This document shows, in pieces, positions 5,117 to 47,542 of a stretch of DNA of 64,000 nt. The notes below the pieces were generated by a model. That model ran no database searches. It had not been told where the DNA came from and saw only the letters and a list, made by a program, of their open reading frames with translations. Every line of letters starts with the position of its first letter. Position 1 is the stretch's first letter. Source of the DNA: Dehalococcoidia bacterium (GTDB taxonomy: Bacteria > Chloroflexota > Dehalococcoidia > Lucifugimonadales > Australimonadaceae); the NCBI GenBank assembly GCA_965200975.1, contig OZ241740.1, forward strand, positions 1,858,636 to 1,922,635, in the 5' to 3' direction. The translations under genes and the position numbers were made by a program.

Positions 5117-5193
5117 GCCCCCATGGTCTAGCGGCCTAGGACGTCACCCTTTCAAGGTGAAGATCGCGGGTTCGAATCCCGCTGGGGGCGCCA
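5117..5193 (+). tRNA. tRNA-Glu (anticodon UUC), CCA encoded
   Basis: The sequence is GCCCCCATGGTCTAGCGG...TCACC-CTTTCAA-GGTGA...GCGGGTTCGAATCCCGC-TGGGGGC-G-CCA. The cloverleaf folds by eye and the anticodon loop is C-U-UUC-A-A. Confidence 0.9.
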
Positions 5194-25380: not shown

Positions 25381-25456
25381 TGGCGCCCCTGCAGGGACTC
25401 GAACCCTGGCGCATGGTTTAGGAAACCACTGCTCTATCCGCCTGAGCTACAGGGGC
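25381..25456 (-). tRNA. tRNA-Arg (anticodon CCU), CCA encoded
   Basis: The reverse complement is GCCCCTGTAGCTCAGGCGGATAGAGCA-GTGGT-TTCCTAA-ACCAT...CAGGGTTCGAGTCCCTG-CAGGGGC-G-CCA. The cloverleaf folds by eye. Confidence 0.9.
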
Positions 25457-41277: not shown

Positions 41278-41553
41278 TGCGCAGCCGTGCTAGACGGGGA
41301 GTTAGCGGCGCCCTGCACCCGAAATCCGCTATAGCGGGGTTGAACTCCTCCCCCAAGGGCCGGCCTCGCCGCCTCTGGTCCGGAAACGGATGTTGAGAGC
41401 CGGGCCCTGCGCGACGGAGCCCCGTGAACCGCGTCAGGTCCGGAAGGAAGCAGCGCTAAGCGGACTGCCCCGAGCGCCGCAGACCAGCCTGGCTCGAGTC
41501 TGAATCCCATGGCTACGCGTCGGGCCACCGGCTCGAAGGGGAGGTGCACGGCT
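41278..41553 (+). ncRNA. ffs: signal recognition particle RNA, long (Bacillus-type, with Alu domain)
   Basis: The domain IV motif GTCAGGTCCGGAAGGAAGCAGC lies at 41434-41455. The 5' GCCGTGCTAGACGGGGAG.TAGCGG.GCCCTG.ACC...AATCCGCT.TAGC parallels the B. subtilis scRNA 5' Alu domain. 5' GCCGTGC (41284) pairs with 3' GCACGGC (41546-41552). Confidence 0.85.
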
Positions 41554-43718: not shown

Positions 43719-43738
43719 CTGCCCGGCTCTGGCTGCGT

Positions 43739-44090
43739 TTGCGAGGGGGTCCGGGGGAGAGGACTCTCTCCCGGCAGCGCGCAGCGCTCTGGTTTGCGAT
43801 GGGGGGGCAGCCGCGGCAGCGCTCATGCAGGCGGCGGCAGCGCTCATGCGATAGGCGTTCGCTGCTGTGGCGTTGCAGCTGGGAGAGCGTCCGCTCCCCC
43901 AGACCCCCTCGCAAAGCCGCTCCGGCGCCGTGGCGCCCCCTCGCAGCCGCAGCCGGGGGGCGGCAGCGCAGCGCTCATGCGATTGGCGTTCGCTGCTGTG
44001 GCGTTGCAGCTGGGAGAGCGTCCGCTCCCCCAGACCCCCTCGCAGCCGGGGGGCAGCGGCCACCCCCCCCCTCGCAGCCACAGCCACCGC
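43739..44090. repeat. cluster of the dispersed repeat family, upstream of the DsbA-like gene
   Basis: A variant copy (reverse orientation) lies at 43739-43774. Two composite forward units, GCGCTCATGCGAT(A/T)GGCGTTCGCTGCTGTGGCGTTGCAGCTGGGAGAGCGTCCGCTCCCCCAGACCCCCTCGCA, have cores at 43881 and 44012 (131-bp period). Confidence 0.85.
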
Positions 44091-44159
44091 GCGATTAGGC
44101 TACACTGCCATCGCCGAGGAACGCAGACGGCAAGAGAGAAGAGAGAGAGGAGGTTGCCT

Positions 44160-44798
44160 GTGACTACGCTTAGGGCTGAGGTTTACTACGATTTTCGCTG
44201 ACCGTTCGTGTTCAATGCAGCCGTGTGGCTGGATCAGGTGAAACGCGCCAGGGGGGACGACGCGCCCATCGAAATCACGTGGCAGCCCTTCTCCCTGCAG
44301 CAGGTCAACCAGAAAGTGGGCCCCGACTATCAGGCGTGGGCCGAGCCGGACGAGAGCCTCGACGGCAGCCTGTGGGGCTTGCGCGCGGGACAGGCCGCCC
44401 GACGGCAGGGCGAGGACGCGCTCCGCGCCTACCTGCCCCTCCTGCTGAGGGCGCGGCACGAAAACCGCAGCGACCTCGGCGACAAGGAGCTCCTCGTGAG
44501 GCTCGCCGACGAGGCCGGACTCGACGCCGACCAGTTCGCGCAAGACCTCGACGACCGCTCGACGCTCGACGAGATCGCCGCGAGCCACAAGCGCGCCGTC
44601 GAGGAGCGCGGCGTGTTCGGCACCCCCACGTTCGTGTTCGAGAGCGGCGGCTCCGCATTCGTCAAGCTCATCCGCCCGCAGACCGACGACCAGGCCGCGA
44701 GCGCGTTCGACTCCCTCGTCAACCTCGTGCAGAACGACCTGTTCGTCGGCGAGGTCAAGCGTCCCCAGCCGCCCTGGCCCAAGGGAGTCTTTGACTAG
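44160..44798 (+). CDS. DsbA/Rv2466c-like thioredoxin-fold oxidoreductase with in-frame TGA (44199-44201) at the catalytic Cys position; selenoprotein candidate or pseudogene
   Basis: The body (44208..44798) reads ...GVFGTPTFVFESGG.AFVKL... and is DsbA-like. The upstream frame reads (GTG)TTLRAEVYYDFR-TGA-PFVFNAAVWLDQV. GGAGG lies 6 nt before GTG 44160. The conservative call is 44208..44798. Confidence 0.6.
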
Positions 44799-45504
44799 CC
44801 GACCGTCCGAACGCAGCCTGGCCGCGCTCGAACGGAAGCTCGGCGTGAGGTTCAGGGAGCGGGAGCTGCTGCGCGAAGCAGTAACGCACCGCTCCTACCT
44901 CAACGAGCAGCCCGACCGCGCGCGCATCAGCTACGACCGCCTCGAGTACCTCGGCGACGCCTTCCTCGGGTGGGTCGTCGCCGGCGAACTGTTCGCGCGC
45001 TACCCCGGCTTCGGCGAGGGAGTCCTCACCCGCGCCCGCGCCGCCCTCGTGCAAGGCCCGGCCCTCGCAGCCGTCGCCGACTCGCTCGGCCTCGGCCCGC
45101 ACCTCATCCTTGGGCTCGGGGAAGACGCAGGAGGCGGACGTCGCCGCCCCCGCACGCTGGCGGCGGCGCTCGAAGCCGTGATCGGCGCCGTGCTGGTCGA
45201 CCGCGGCGAGCGGCGCGCCCGCGCGCTCGTCCTCTCGTGGCTTGGGGAGCAGCTCGACGCCATCGGCCCGGACGGCCCCGCGCCCGACGCCAAGAGCGCG
45301 CTGCAAGAGCAGCTGCAGCGCAGCGGACGCCCCCTGCCCGTCTACCGCATCGCCGGCGAATCGGGCCCTCCCCACGCCCGGACGTTCACCGTGCGCGCCG
45401 AAGTCGACGGCGAAACAATCGGCGAAGGCGCCGGCCCCAGCAAATCCGCCGCCGAACAAAACGCCGCCCAAACCGCCCTCCAAACCCTCCGCCACGACGC
45501 CTAA
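44791..45504 (+). CDS. rnc: ribonuclease III
   Basis: 237 aa, reading LL.EA.TH.SY..E.......ERLEYLGDAFLG.VV...L....P...EG.L...R..LV plus a C-terminal dsRBD (P.Y.........H...F.V.......G.G.G.SK..AEQ.AA..AL). Confidence 0.93.
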   Translation: MTSRPSERSLAALERKLGVRFRERELLREAVTHRSYLNEQPDRARISYDRLEYLGDAFLGWVVAGELFARYPGFGEGVLTRARAALVQGPALAAVADSLGLGPHLILGLGEDAGGGRRRPRTLAAALEAVIGAVLVDRGERRARALVLSWLGEQLDAIGPDGPAPDAKSALQEQLQRSGRPLPVYRIAGESGPPHARTFTVRAEVDGETIGEGAGPSKSAAEQNAAQTALQTLRHDA

Positions 45505-45519
45505 GCGCCGCGCTGCCCC

Positions 45520-46225
45520 CAGCGGCGGCTGCCCTCCGGCCGCCAGGGGGTGTTGCGCGAGAGGGGCGGCTGCCTTCCGGCTGCCAGGGGGTCTGGGGGA
45601 GCGGACGCTCTCCCAGCGCTACGACGCAGGGGCGAACACCTATCGCATGGGCGGCGCCGCGGGAGGGGTGGCTGCCCCCCGACGCATGAGCGCTGCGCCC
45701 CCTCCATCCCGACGCATGATCTCTGCCGCACTCCCGGGAGAGAGTCCTCTCCCCCGGACCCCCTCGCAATCCCCCACCTCCGGCGGCGAACGCCTATCGC
45801 ATGGGCGGCGTCGCGGGAGGGAGGGCTGCCGCCAGAGCGGCGCCTGCCCAGCGGCTGCCAGGGGGTCTGGGGGAGCGAACGCTCTCCCAGCGCTACGACG
45901 CAGCGGCGAACGCCAATTGCATGGGCGGCGCCGCGGGAGGGGCGACACGCAGAGAGCGGCGCTGCCTTCCGGCTGCCAGGGGGTCTGGGGGAGCGGACGC
46001 TCTCCCAGCGCTACGACGCAGTGGCGAACGCCTACTGCATGAGCGCTGCCGCGGGAGGGGTGGCTGCCCCCCCGGCTGCCGCGCCGCCGCCGCCTGCATG
46101 AGCGCTGCGCTGCCGCCCCCTCGCAGACATGCCTGAGCGTTGCCGTGCTTGCAATTGGTGTTCGCGGCTGTGGCGGTGCAGCTGGGAGAGCGTCCGCTCC
46201 CCCCAGACCCCCTGGCAGCCAAGGG
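45520..46225. repeat. about 700-bp non-coding cluster of the dispersed repeat family in both orientations
   Basis: Reverse cores CCAGGGGGTCTGGGGGAGCG(G/A)ACGCTCTCCCAGCGCTACGACGCAG start at about 45584, 45858 and 45976. A forward variant lies at 45734-45769 and a forward canonical copy at 46182-46220. The companion module GCGAACRCCYAYYGCATG recurs. Confidence 0.85.
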
Positions 46226-46238
46226 GCAGCCGCCAGCG

Positions 46239-46269
46239 AAAGGGGGGAGCGCTTGGCGCTCCCCCCTTT
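46239..46269 (-). terminator. intrinsic terminator for the ftsY-to-orphan minus-strand operon (hairpin readable on both strands)
   Basis: AAAGGGGGGAGCGC-TTG-GCGCTCCCCCCTTT forms a 14-bp stem flanked by A3/T3. It lies 29 nt downstream of the stop at 46298. Confidence 0.6.
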
Positions 46270-46297
46270 GTAGGTGGCTGGTTTTGCGGGTTGACGG

Positions 46298-47542
46298 TTA
46301 GTTGACTGAGGCGGAGAGGCGGTTGCCGCCGCTTACTCGCCAGGTTATCGATACGTCGTCCCAGCCTTCGCGGCTGAAGGTCATCGTGCGGGGGTTGCTC
46401 CGCCAGACGCCCTTGTCGAACGATACGCCGTCGCCAAGCGTCAGGCTACTCGGCTGGTACGACGGCTTGCGGCTCCAGATCCGCAGACGCACGCTCGCCT
46501 CCTCGCCGTCGGAGTAGCTGACCGTAACGTCTCTCCCGCTGATCGAGGCGTCAACCGACGGCTCAGGCGTGGGCGGCGCCGACGGCTCATCCTCCGGCTC
46601 TTCGCCCGTGAGGTCGTACATCCAGTACGCCCTGAAACTGCCGAGCGCGCCCGCAACCCGCCGCACCGACTCGCTGCTGTCGCTCGCAAATGCCGTCCGC
46701 GTCCCAAACGCGCTGGCGGTGATAGGAGGCTGGCCGCCGGAAAGAATCGAGACCGGCGCGTCGATTACGTTCTCTTCGTAGTGGTCCAACATGTTGCTCA
46801 CGTCGGCGTGGCAGCGATTCTGATCCTTTGCGTGGACGCGGTACTGGGTGGTCTTACGATGCGTACCTTCGCCGTCGACATGCACGGTGAAGAGGCAGTA
46901 CTCGTGATCGTTGCCGCCGTCACTGGCCGGAATGTTAACTGCGACAGCGAGGAAGAGAAAACGCATGTCCGGGTGGTCGGAGCGGGAGGAGCGAATATTG
47001 CCGCCGAAGGCCATCACACCCTCTATCGCGGCTATTGCTTCCTTCTCATCATCAGTTGCAGTTGGGCTATCTTTGCCTCTGAGGTCGTTTATCTCGTGTA
47101 CAAACCCGTTGGGCGCATTCACGCACGTGTAGTTGAGGTCTTCTTCCCTGGCATTCACATCGTTATCGGCAGGCCTGGAGCACTCCAGGTAGTCGTAGAG
47201 CCCATTGAATGCATTGTTACCGCTGACGCCAAACTTGATCGTGTCCAGCTTCCGCACTGCCTCGCGAAGTTCGGGAGCGCGGTAGCCAATGAGGCTGTAG
47301 AGGTTTGTTGTTTCCGTATTCTCCGGATCAGCTTCAGTCGGAGCGGGCTTCTCGTACGTCCCGCTGATGTATTTACAGTACCGGACGGGGTCAAGGGATT
47401 GGTTAGTCGGGTACGTCCAGTATCTGTTCGAGGTATCAGGCGTGTTTGGGGGAGCGCTCGTGTCCTTGATGCACCCGGGGACGTCGTCGAGTGTCTGCGC
47501 AGCAGATGAGGAGGAGGGGGGCGGCGCAGGCGGCGGACGGCG
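46298..47542 (-). CDS. hypothetical protein, lower-GC orphan; start unresolved
   Basis: The track ORF starts at GTG 47257 (319 aa). The same frame stays open and protein-like for 95 more codons (...YWTYPTNQSLDPVRYCKYISGTYEKPAPTEADPENTETTNLYSLIGYRAPELREA-V...) up to the TAA of the upstream gene. There is no ATG, GTG or TTG in that stretch. Confidence 0.55.
   Translation of the reverse strand, partial: RRPPPAPPPSSSSAAQTLDDVPGCIKDTSAPPNTPDTSNRYWTYPTNQSLDPVRYCKYISGTYEKPAPTEADPENTETTNLYSLIGYRAPELREAVRKLDTIKFGVSGNNAFNGLYDYLECSRPADNDVNAREEDLNYTCVNAPNGFVHEINDLRGKDSPTATDDEKEAIAAIEGVMAFGGNIRSSRSDHPDMRFLFLAVAVNIPASDGGNDHEYCLFTVHVDGEGTHRKTTQYRVHAKDQNRCHADVSNMLDHYEENVIDAPVSILSGGQPPITASAFGTRTAFASDSSESVRRVAGALGSFRAYWMYDLTGEEPEDEPSAPPTPEPSVDASISGRDVTVSYSDGEEASVRLRIWSRKPSYQPSSLTLGDGVSFDKGVWRSNPRTMTFSREGWDDVSITWRVSGGNRLSASVN

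What the first reader, a model, noticed from the sequence alone, without database searches (positions are those of the whole stretch)
44160..44234. In-frame UGA at the catalytic-Cys position of a DsbA/Rv2466c-like gene: selenoprotein candidate
The ORF track starts this gene at GTG 44208. The frame is open back to GTG 44160 except for one TGA (44199-44201).

- Upstream reading: it translates to M/V-TTLRAEVYYDFR-[TGA]-PFVFNAAVWLDQV, which is the beta1 strand plus active-site helix of DsbA-like thioredoxin folds.
- Family comparison: the M. tuberculosis protein Rv2466c has [20 protein letters not shown] (from memory). The rest of this protein is also colinear with it (GTPTF.....F.....I...., ending in a PP..D tail). 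The TGA falls exactly on the nucleophilic Cys of CPxC, giving a U-P-F-V motif with no resolving Cys.
- Translation signals: a strong GGAGG lies 6 nt before GTG 44160, and no SD precedes GTG 44208.
- Downstream structure: sixteen nt after the TGA is a hairpin CAGCC-GUGU-GGCUG (44218-44231, extendable by AU/UA pairs). Its G/U-containing apical loop is about 21 nt from the UGA, which is compatible with bacterial SECIS geometry.
Basis: partly seen in the sequence, partly recalled or inferred. Interest (0 to 1): 0.8.

Follow-up and report, generated by a model that had tools for sequence, protein, structure and literature searches.

The report
Mis-annotated DsbA-like selenoprotein gene in SAR202
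The "stop" codon near the start of this thioredoxin-fold gene almost certainly encodes selenocysteine at the enzyme's active site, so the gene is a real but routinely truncated selenoprotein of marine SAR202 bacteria, and it belongs to a kind of selenoprotein that is already known.

Summary
GGAGG, GTG 44160, 13 codons, an in-frame TGA (44199-44201), and a CAGCC-GUGU-GGCUG hairpin 16 nt downstream are all present.

- **TGA conservation:** The TGA is conserved in 79 of 79 species-representative Dehalococcoidia/SAR202 genomes. It is also conserved in 75 of 77 metagenome loci, at 43-90% protein identity. A start codon lies exactly 13 codons upstream in 126 of 128 distinct loci.
- **Cysteine orthologues:** The few full-length orthologues, which share the same rnc/ftsY synteny, carry Cys at that column. 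The column aligns with Cys24 of D. radiodurans DR2335 and with the first Cys of CPWC in Rv2466c.
- **Hairpin:** It meets all four criteria of the published bacterial SECIS model. It is under synonymous-site constraint, shows compensatory changes, and is degraded in the Cys forms.
- **TGA as a stop:** TGA is an ordinary stop codon elsewhere in the window.
- **Sec machinery:** It is not in the window. A SAR202 genome that carries the orthologue (bin16) is reported to have SelA, SelB and SelD.

The gene encodes a 212-residue cytoplasmic DsbA-like protein with a single-selenol U-P-F-V active site. DsbA-like selenoproteins have been catalogued since 2005, including a "UxxV" form (GOS, 2008) and a "DxxUP" form. 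This is therefore a new member of a known kind. What it adds is an annotation correction and an ecological point, not a new mechanism.

The parts
44149..44153 (+). Shine-Dalgarno-like GGAGG, 6 nt upstream of the true start codon
   Evidence: Read directly from the sequence. A purine-rich motif precedes the equivalent start codon in all 128 distinct loci, but the pattern used for that count was liberal.
44160..44162 (+). True start codon (GTG) of the selenoprotein gene
   Evidence: A start codon lies exactly 13 codons upstream of the UGA in 126 of 128 distinct loci: ATG in 110, GTG in 15 and TTG in 3.
44160..44198 (+). Thirteen N-terminal codons (M/V-TTLRAEVYYDFR), forming strand beta-1 of the thioredoxin fold; current gene calls omit them
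   Evidence: Pfam DSBA matches from residue 7 onward. Orthologues show synonymous changes here. In the AF2 model of the Cys orthologue, the equivalent residues 9-15 form a strand.
44199..44201 (+). In-frame UGA, read as selenocysteine (residue U14), the active-site nucleophile
   Evidence: The codon is TGA in 79 of 79 genome loci and in 75 of 77 metagenome loci. It is Cys in the full-length orthologues. It aligns with Cys24 of DR2335 and with the first Cys of CPWC in Rv2466c.
44215..44234 (+). Bacterial SECIS hairpin inside the coding sequence: upper stem 44218-44222/44227-44231, loop GUGU 44223-44226, lower pairs 44215-44216/44233-44234 across a G.G mismatch
   Evidence: It meets all four criteria of the published model: 4-nt loop starting GU, 5-bp upper stem, 21-nt spacing, -9.5 kcal/mol. 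In the alignment, 91% of cells are paired against 60% or less when partners are slid. Synonymous-site entropy is 0.26-1.21 bits here against a mean of 1.71 elsewhere. The hairpin is weaker in Cys forms.
44160..44798 (+). Full coding sequence: 212 codons plus a TAG stop, encoding a cytoplasmic single-selenol DsbA-like / Rv2466c-like protein
   Evidence: Pfam PF01323 scores 64 bits and PF22234 scores 32.6 bits, both above their cut-offs. The fold of the orthologue matches 7dk9 and 4zil.
44791..45504 (+). rnc (RNase III), overlapping the selenoprotein gene's stop by 8 nt; a conserved downstream neighbour
   Evidence: Pfam Ribonucleas_3_3, Ribonuclease_3 and dsrm all match. The same neighbour is seen in Sec-form and Cys-form loci.

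Best explanation
Window 44160-44798 is one gene for a 212-residue cytoplasmic DsbA-like thioredoxin-fold protein of the DR2335/Rv2466c clade. Its active-site nucleophile is selenocysteine, encoded by UGA 44199-44201.

**How the UGA is read (inferred from known Sec biology)**
- Translation starts at GTG 44160, behind a GGAGG.
- When the ribosome reaches the UGA, the hairpin 16-36 nt downstream acts as a bacterial SECIS. It recruits SelB carrying Sec-tRNA(Sec), so Sec is inserted instead of termination.

**How the protein works**
- Shown: Sec sits at the N-terminus of helix alpha-1 in a U-P-F-V motif. There is no resolving cysteine, a GTPT cis-Pro loop is present, and the fold is DsbA-like.
- Inferred: it works as a single-selenol (monothiol-type) oxidoreductase. 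The selenolate attacks a mixed disulfide or another electrophile and forms a selenenyl-sulfide. A low-molecular-weight thiol then resolves that intermediate.
- Speculative: coenzyme A may be that thiol. Related single-Cys proteins occur fused to dephospho-CoA kinase.
For: **Cys/Sec pairing**
- Full-length homologues P0057, P0082, P0106 and P0112-P0120 have YDFRCPFVYNA, with Cys at the TGA column.
- Those Cys forms share the rnc/ftsY synteny, so they are orthologues.

**Conservation of the TGA**
- 79 of 79 GTDB species-representative loci carry it, at 43-90% identity.
- 75 of 77 metagenome loci carry it, even though that scan was seeded with Cys forms.

**The upstream stretch is coding**
- A start codon sits exactly 13 codons upstream in 126 of 128 loci.
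- Upstream of the UGA there are synonymous changes and amino-acid substitutions, with no frame disruption.
- There is no conserved start codon after the UGA.

**SECIS**
- The window hairpin meets the model's loop, stem, spacing and free-energy criteria.
- The upper stem is 91% paired, against 60% or less for slid controls.
- Three of the four lowest fourfold-site entropies in the gene lie in the hairpin codons.
- Asn AAU/AAC covaries perfectly with Ala GCA/GCG, giving U-A or C-G (19:19:0:0).
- Hairpin free energy is -9.6 kcal/mol in 138 Sec forms and -6.5 kcal/mol in 7 Cys forms (Mann-Whitney p = 4e-5).

**No code reassignment**
- TGA terminates several Pfam-complete genes in the window.

**Sec machinery**
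- SAR202 bin16 (MPMJ; locus L021, TGA form) is listed with one copy each of SelA, SelB and SelD. The other four SAR202 bins of that study also have all three.

**Fold**
- The AF2 model has pLDDT 92. TM-scores are 0.77-0.80 to DR2335 and 0.67-0.75 to Rv2466c.
- The Sec column aligns with the catalytic Cys of both proteins.
Against: - No selA, selB, selD or tRNA-Sec lies in the 64-kb window, and the rest of this genome could not be searched.
- The single-sequence fold is not more stable than shuffled controls.
- Rfam has no matching family.
- About 40% of family members miss the strict SECIS model, through an AUGU loop or a bulge that splits the stem.
- Covariation counts are inflated by shared ancestry.
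- There is no experimental evidence of selenium incorporation.
- The catalytic mechanism and substrate are inference only. The closest solved relative, DR2335, has no described function in the literature I could reach.
Confidence: 0.88

Rival explanations
1. The UGA is a true stop. A 13-codon leader peptide is made, and the DsbA-like protein is translated separately from a downstream start such as GTG 44208, as current annotations assume.
For: All public gene calls for the family start downstream and give products of 182-197 aa. GTG codons exist after the UGA.
Against: - The downstream start position is not conserved: codon offset 8 in 77 loci, offset 3 in 26, and other offsets in the rest. 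No Shine-Dalgarno motif precedes 44208.
- The truncated product would lack strand beta-1 and the catalytic residue of the fold.
- Cys-form orthologues are continuous across this point.
- The leader always ends exactly at the catalytic column.
Confidence: 0.03
2. The UGA is read through, but not as selenocysteine. Near-cognate Trp, Cys or Arg is inserted at a leaky UGA-C context, or the lineage has reassigned UGA.
For: The base after the UGA is always C. From memory, UGA-C is a weak termination context in E. coli; this was not checked here. The Sec machinery was not shown for this genome.
Against: - TGA is a normal stop for several complete genes in the window.
- The position is the redox nucleophile, where only Cys or Sec makes sense.
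- A conserved hairpin of SECIS geometry accompanies the TGA forms and decays in the Cys forms.
- SelA, SelB and SelD are reported in SAR202 genomes that carry the gene.
Confidence: 0.05
3. The gene is a pseudogene or contains a sequencing or assembly error (TGC/TGT misread as TGA).
For: A single in-frame stop near the 5' end is the commonest signature of such artefacts.
Against: - The sequence is identical in four independent read-set assemblies.
- TGA is present in 155 loci from different species and studies, with purifying selection on both sides.
Confidence: 0.01
4. The conserved hairpin serves another RNA-level purpose, for example an RNase III or regulatory site for the overlapping rnc gene, rather than Sec insertion.
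For: rnc immediately follows the gene in nearly all loci. From memory, RNase III autoregulates through stem-loops in E. coli.
Against: - The stem is only 5-7 bp, far shorter than RNase III substrates.
- It lies about 570 nt upstream of rnc.
- Cys-form loci keep the rnc synteny but lose the hairpin.
Confidence: 0.02

Closest known systems
DsbA-like selenoproteins from marine metagenome surveys: Sargasso Sea 2005 "DsbA-like, UxxC"; GOS 2008 "DsbA 3, pfam01323, UxxV"; 2026 catalogue "DsbA-like protein form 2, PF01323, DxxUP"
   Same: - It has the PF01323 domain, with Sec at the N-terminal active-site position.
- It has an in-ORF bacterial SECIS and a marine origin.
- Its motif D-F-R-U-P-F-V fits both UxxV and DxxUP.
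   Different: - Identity with those catalogued sequences could not be checked, because their accessions are not retrievable here.
[quoted passage not shown]
- None of those papers links the form to SAR202. Peng 2016 scored a SAR202 single-cell genome as negative for selenium use.
- No NCBIfam model covers the family.
DR2335 of Deinococcus radiodurans (PDB 7dk9; C24S mutant 7dka)
   Same: - It is the best match by sequence (E = 3e-15 for the protein, 4e-26 for the profile) and by structure (TM 0.77-0.80).
- It has a single active-site Cys in C-P-Y-A with no resolving Cys.
- It shares the C-terminal (V/I)-(K/R)-R-P motif and is predicted to be cytoplasmic.
   Different: It uses Cys rather than Sec. 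Identity is about 25%. It has an extra insertion after beta-2. No function is described in the literature I could reach.
Rv2466c (mycoredoxin-2-type, mycothiol-dependent nitroreductase) of M. tuberculosis, Pfam PF22234
   Same: It is colinear over the whole length (profile E = 1e-7). Sec aligns with the first Cys of its motif. The fold TM-score is 0.67-0.75.
   Different: Rv2466c has a dithiol CPWC motif. Here the second position is Val. Mycothiol is an actinobacterial thiol and is not expected in Chloroflexota (from my own knowledge).
Kappa-class glutathione transferase / 2-hydroxychromene-2-carboxylate isomerase
   Same: It has the same DsbA-like fold and a single catalytic residue in an (S/C/U)-P-aromatic motif after beta-1. 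The catalytic residue works on a bound low-molecular-weight thiol (for the fold; the motif is from memory).
   Different: The catalytic residue there is Ser. TM-score is only about 0.6 and identity 17-19%.

Membership tests
Bacterial selenoprotein gene (Sec-UGA plus in-ORF SECIS) | The in-frame UGA aligns with Cys in homologues | tested here: met
   Cys occupies the column in P0057, P0082, P0106 and P0112-P0120, and in DR2335 and Rv2466c.
Bacterial selenoprotein gene (Sec-UGA plus in-ORF SECIS) | The UGA and the reading frame on both sides are conserved across orthologues | tested here: met
   155 loci carry TGA. A start codon lies 13 codons upstream in 126 of 128 distinct loci.
Bacterial selenoprotein gene (Sec-UGA plus in-ORF SECIS) | A stem-loop fits the bSECIS model: 3-9 nt loop with G in its first two positions, upper stem of at least 4 bp, 16-37 nt spacing from the UGA, MFE of -7.5 kcal/mol or lower | tested here: met
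   The window has loop GUGU, a 5-bp stem, 21-nt spacing and -9.5 kcal/mol. 70 of 117 distinct family sequences pass all four criteria. The others have an AUGU loop or a bulged stem.
Bacterial selenoprotein gene (Sec-UGA plus in-ORF SECIS) | selA, selB, selC and selD are present in the same genome | not testable with these tools
In the literature, SAR202 bin16, which carries the TGA orthologue L021, has SelA, SelB and SelD.
Bacterial selenoprotein gene (Sec-UGA plus in-ORF SECIS) | Selenium incorporation shown experimentally | not testable with these tools
   This needs 75Se labelling or mass spectrometry.
DsbA-like thioredoxin-fold family (PF01323), Rv2466c-like clade (PF22234) | Profile match above the curated cut-off | tested here: met
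   PF01323 scores 64.1 bits against a cut-off of 25.6. PF22234 scores 32.6 bits against a cut-off of 27.
DsbA-like thioredoxin-fold family (PF01323), Rv2466c-like clade (PF22234) | Thioredoxin fold with a helical insertion, active site at the N-terminus of helix alpha-1, and a cis-Pro loop | tested here: met
   This was tested on the Cys orthologue P0057 (54% identical). The AF2 model has pLDDT 92.4, with Cys19 immediately before helix 20-35. GTPT is invariant.
DsbA-like thioredoxin-fold family (PF01323), Rv2466c-like clade (PF22234) | CxxC (or UxxC) dithiol active site | tested here: not met
   The motif is U-P-F-V. The +3 position is Val in 137 of 141 sequences. Only a small sub-branch has U-P-Y-C.
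Classical periplasmic DsbA | N-terminal export signal | tested here: not met
   By inspection only; no signal-peptide predictor was run. Strand beta-1 starts at residue 6 and there is no hydrophobic leader.
GOS "DsbA 3 (UxxV)" / catalogue "DsbA-like form 2 (DxxUP)" selenoprotein subfamily | PF01323 domain with a UxxV or DxxUP motif | tested here: met
   The window reads D11-F-R-U14-P-F-V17.
GOS "DsbA 3 (UxxV)" / catalogue "DsbA-like form 2 (DxxUP)" selenoprotein subfamily | Sequence similarity to the published representatives (for example MDP6049977.1) | not testable with these tools
   The accession is not retrievable. Cluster look-ups returned no names or accessions.

The most novel reading that the evidence does not exclude
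This is the signature housekeeping selenoprotein of the SAR202/Dehalococcoidia lineage. It uses Sec almost without exception (over 95% of more than 150 loci) and is co-located with rnc and ftsY. Its single-selenol active site works on coenzyme-A mixed disulfides, as the CoaE-DsbA-like fusions among its Cys relatives hint. If so, it would be a previously undescribed selenium-dependent CoA-redox enzyme, and it would make one of the most abundant deep-ocean bacterial clades dependent on selenium.
Probability: 0.12. Interest if true: 0.6.

Novelty: new member of a known kind. Interest (0 to 1): 0.3.

Why it matters
- **Annotation:** Every public gene call for this family that I saw is truncated to 182-197 residues. 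Those calls lack the catalytic residue, and NCBIfam has no model for the family. The family is therefore invisible as a selenoprotein in hundreds of SAR202 genomes.
- **Ecology:** The gene is nearly universal in SAR202 and nearly always uses Sec. SAR202 are largely aerobic, very abundant dark-ocean and sponge-associated bacteria. An earlier survey scored a SAR202 single-cell genome as not using selenium. This gene would be a simple marker of selenocysteine use in the clade.
- **Biochemistry:** A Sec-only DsbA-like active site with natural Cys orthologues gives a clean pair for asking what Sec buys in a monothiol mechanism.

None of this changes what is known about how Sec is decoded.

Tried and rejected
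- **Rfam:** Scans at gathering score (whole window) and at E up to 10 (44100-44400) found nothing at the site. No library family matched the hairpin.
- **Single-sequence folding:** Folding 44199-44260 gave z = 0.11, which is uninformative in 67% G+C sequence.
- **Sec machinery in the window:** tblastn of E. coli SelA, SelB and SelD against the window gave no hit better than E = 0.06. ARAGORN found only tRNA-Glu and tRNA-Arg.
- **Other selenoprotein genes in the window:** A scan for UGA-bridged ORFs was swamped by spurious open frames in the high-G+C sequence. After filtering by GC1/2/3, no second candidate stood out.
- **A Chloroflexota SelD to use as a query:** The plasmid collection yielded none.
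- **Names and accessions:** The listing of cluster members returned none, so the link to MDP6049977.1 stays untested.
- **Structure prediction of the window protein:** The 54%-identical Cys orthologue P0057 was modelled instead.
- **RNAalifold on all 117 sequences:** It failed because the lower stem shifts register between clades. Subgroup folds were used instead.
- **coaE near the gene:** None was found in the window or in any locus.
- **Literature:** No paper in the library links SAR202 with selenoproteins.

Full report
**1. The observation**

The sequence is as described.
- GGAGG lies at 44149-44153, followed by 6 nt and then GTG at 44160.
- Thirteen codons (V/M-TTLRAEVYYDFR) precede TGA at 44199-44201.
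- The frame continues PFVFNAAVWLDQV... to TAG at 44796-44798.
- The mechanical ORF list starts the gene at GTG 44208, with no purine-rich motif in front.
- The hairpin CAGCC-GUGU-GGCUG occupies 44218-44231, 16 nt after the TGA. It extends by U44216-A44233 and A44215-U44234 across a G.G mismatch.

The TGA is not a read error. Four Logan assemblies of separate SRA runs carry the identical sequence.

**2. The protein**

I translated the gene with Cys in place of the stop.
- It matches Pfam DSBA (PF01323, 64 bits, residues 7-167, so the match includes the upstream codons).
- It matches Rv2466c-like (PF22234, 32.6 bits). Both scores are above their cut-offs.
- NCBIfam has no model for it. The only hit is a 23.6-bit partial match to a different (seleno)lipoprotein family.

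The best solved relative is DR2335 of Deinococcus radiodurans (7dk9; E = 3e-15).
- Its active site is a single Cys in F-L-C-P-Y-A-W.
- The depositors' C24S mutant (7dka) changes exactly the residue that aligns with the TGA.
- A profile of the Cys-form orthologues aligns over its full length with Rv2466c (E = 1e-7). The Sec/Cys column falls on the first Cys of CPWC, and Val replaces the second Cys.

An AlphaFold2 model of the 54%-identical Cys orthologue P0057 is confident (pLDDT 92.4).
- It places the Cys immediately before helix alpha-1, after strand beta-1.
- Foldseek ranks DR2335 first (TM 0.77-0.80), then Rv2466c and its M. leprae orthologue (TM 0.63-0.75).
- FrnE, kappa-class GST and HCCA isomerase follow.

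The N-terminus runs straight into beta-1, with no export signal, so the protein is cytoplasmic.

**3. Comparative evidence for Sec**

*Protein search.* The search returned about 1,000 relatives. Almost all of the closest 120 are 182-197 residues and cover only 85-92% of the query. These are gene calls truncated at variable downstream starts. The few full-length ones read YDFRCPFVYNA.

*DNA around the gene.*
- In 79 of 79 usable species-representative genomes, the catalytic codon is TGA. All are Dehalococcoidia, SAR202 or Chloroflexota MAGs, and protein identity runs from 43% to 90%.
- A metagenome scan seeded with the Cys forms still gave 75 TGA loci against 2 Cys loci.
- A start codon lies exactly 13 codons upstream of the UGA in 126 of 128 distinct loci, and 110 of those are ATG. 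The first start codon after the UGA is not conserved.
- The upstream peptide varies in sequence but keeps the beta-strand pattern and the (Y/F)-D-(F/Y)-x motif.

*Orthology.* Cys-form genes have the same neighbours (rnc, ftsY), so they are orthologues. Some Sec forms are 71-76% identical to a Cys form, so Sec/Cys exchange has been recent.

*Genetic code.* TGA ends several genes in the window whose Pfam matches are complete. These include a class-III aminotransferase, an FAA hydrolase, an amine oxidase and an LPG-synthase TM protein. The code is therefore standard.

**4. The SECIS**

*The published model.* It asks for:
- a 3-9 nt loop with G in its first two positions;
- an upper stem of at least 4 bp;
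- 16-37 nt between the UGA and the loop;
- a free energy of -7.5 kcal/mol or lower.

*How the hairpin fits.* The window hairpin has loop GUGU, a 5-bp stem, 21 nt of spacing and -9.5 kcal/mol. Across 117 distinct family sequences, 70 pass all four criteria. The rest have an AUGU loop or a single-base bulge that interrupts the stem.

*Pairing.* The upper stem is paired in 91% of alignment cells, against 13-60% when partners are slid. It shows G-C to A-U changes at pair 22-31.

*Lower stem.* The lower stem shifts register between clades but is maintained:
- AAU...GAU gives U-A and A-U pairs.
- AAU...GCA and AAC...GCG give U-A or C-G, with a bulged U.
- The synonymous third positions of the Asn and Ala codons covary perfectly (19:19:0:0).
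- The Fisher p of 6e-11 is not corrected for phylogeny.

*Synonymous-site constraint.*

| Codon | Third-position entropy (bits) |
|---|---|
| Ala7 (hairpin) | 1.21 |
| Ala8 (hairpin) | 0.26 |
| Val9 (hairpin) | 0.99 |
| Leu11 (hairpin) | 0.46 |
| Mean of 55 other fourfold columns | 1.71 |
| Lowest outside the hairpin: Arg codon just before the UGA (CGU in 83 of 100) | 0.66 |

*Cys-form control.* In the seven Cys-form loci the hairpin codons have drifted. NAAVWL becomes NATMWL, NARQWL, NAEGWL and so on. The local fold weakens to -6.5 ± 1.5 kcal/mol, against -9.6 ± 1.4 kcal/mol in 138 Sec forms (Mann-Whitney p = 4e-5).

*Caveats.* The single-sequence z-score is null, and Rfam has no corresponding family.

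**5. Sec machinery**

The window holds no selA, selB, selD or tRNA-Sec, and I could not search the rest of the genome.

The link to the machinery comes from the literature. Locus L021 (MPMJ01000004.1, TGA form, 73% identical) belongs to SAR202 bin16 of Slaby et al. 2017. Their Table S4 lists one copy each of COG1921 (SelA), COG3276 (SelB) and COG0709 (SelD) for bin16. All three are also listed for the other four SAR202 bins. An older survey scored the incomplete SAR202 single-cell genome AAA240-N13 as negative.

**6. Mechanism**

*Decoding.* SelB-dependent Sec insertion directed by the in-ORF hairpin is inferred from the anatomy and from the established bacterial pathway.

*Chemistry.* U-P-F-V has no resolving Cys. 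Val is at +3 in 137 of 141 sequences. A small sub-branch has U-P-Y-C. A monothiol-type cycle through a selenenyl-sulfide, resolved by a low-molecular-weight thiol, is the most economical reading.

*A hint about the partner thiol.* An exhaustive phmmer search found three separate clusters in which a single-Cys domain of this clade is fused to dephospho-CoA kinase. This points to coenzyme A, but no coaE lies near the SAR202 genes.

*Limits.* The substrate is unknown. DR2335 has no described function in the literature I could reach.

**7. Novelty**

DsbA-like selenoproteins were reported from the Sargasso Sea in 2005 with a UxxC motif. The GOS analysis of 2008 lists "DsbA 3, pfam01323, UxxV", with five sequences. 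The 2026 catalogue lists "DsbA-like protein form 2, PF01323, DxxUP". The window motif D-F-R-U-P-F-V fits both.

I could not retrieve those sequences to confirm identity. No paper in the library connects SAR202 with selenoproteins.

The finding is therefore a correct call of a selenoprotein gene of a known kind. What it adds is the near-universal, almost exclusively Sec form across SAR202 and the systematic mis-annotation of the gene.

**8. Verdict**

- Confidence that this is a Sec-decoding gene is about 0.9.
- Confidence in the proposed catalytic role is much lower.
- Interest is 0.3.

Noticed in passing
window 43720-44100 and 45500-46300: Both intergenic flanks of the dsbA-like/rnc gene pair are filled with about 110-130-nt G+C-rich repeat units. 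The core is GCTGGGAGAGCGTCCGCTCCCCCAGACCCCCTCGCA, which is itself partly palindromic. Upstream copies are in one orientation and downstream copies mostly in the other, so the gene pair is bracketed by inverted repeat arrays: 50-53 nt arms, 89-94% complementary, 1.5-1.9 kb apart. The repeats look like a REP- or MITE-like family. They are absent upstream of the orthologues in L005 and L006.
   Followed up: partly
proteins P0173, P0174, P0204 (locus L175:4001-5272): Among Cys-form relatives of the family there are fusions of dephospho-CoA kinase (CoaE, PF01121, E about 1e-46 to 1e-49) with a C-terminal single-Cys DsbA-like domain (FFDYACPFVW...EIKRP). This is a possible functional link between this clade and coenzyme A.
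   Followed up: partly
loci L072, L136, L146, L148: A small sub-branch of the Sec forms has U-P-Y-C-Y-H instead of U-P-(F/Y)-V-(F/Y)-N. It has gained or kept a resolving Cys at +3, giving a UxxC motif.
   Followed up: no
window 44196-44202 and the same positions in all loci: The Arg codon just before the UGA is CGU in 83 of 100 CGN cases. This is the most constrained fourfold site outside the hairpin. The base after the UGA is always C. This may be a context effect on Sec decoding or on termination.
   Followed up: no
window 44216 / 44234 and equivalents (alignment positions 18 and 36 counted from the U of UGA): The synonymous third positions of the Asn codon (AAU or AAC) and of a downstream Ala codon (GCA or GCG) covary perfectly (19 U-A, 19 C-G, no mixed cases). 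A bulged U moves between positions 32, 33 and 34 in different clades.
   Followed up: yes
locus L087 (JAGWBF010000036.1): This TGA-form copy has an additional in-frame TAA about 20 codons after the UGA (...KKSYG*). It may be a pseudogene or an assembly error in that MAG.
   Followed up: no
window 41285-41551 (+), 5117-5193 (+), 25381-25456 (-): These are a bacterial large SRP RNA (165 bits), tRNA-Glu(UUC) and tRNA-Arg(CCU). ftsY follows rnc in several orthologous loci but not in this window, where repeats intervene.
   Followed up: no
window 46298-47257 (-): A 319-aa ORF just beyond the downstream repeat array has no Pfam match.
   Followed up: no
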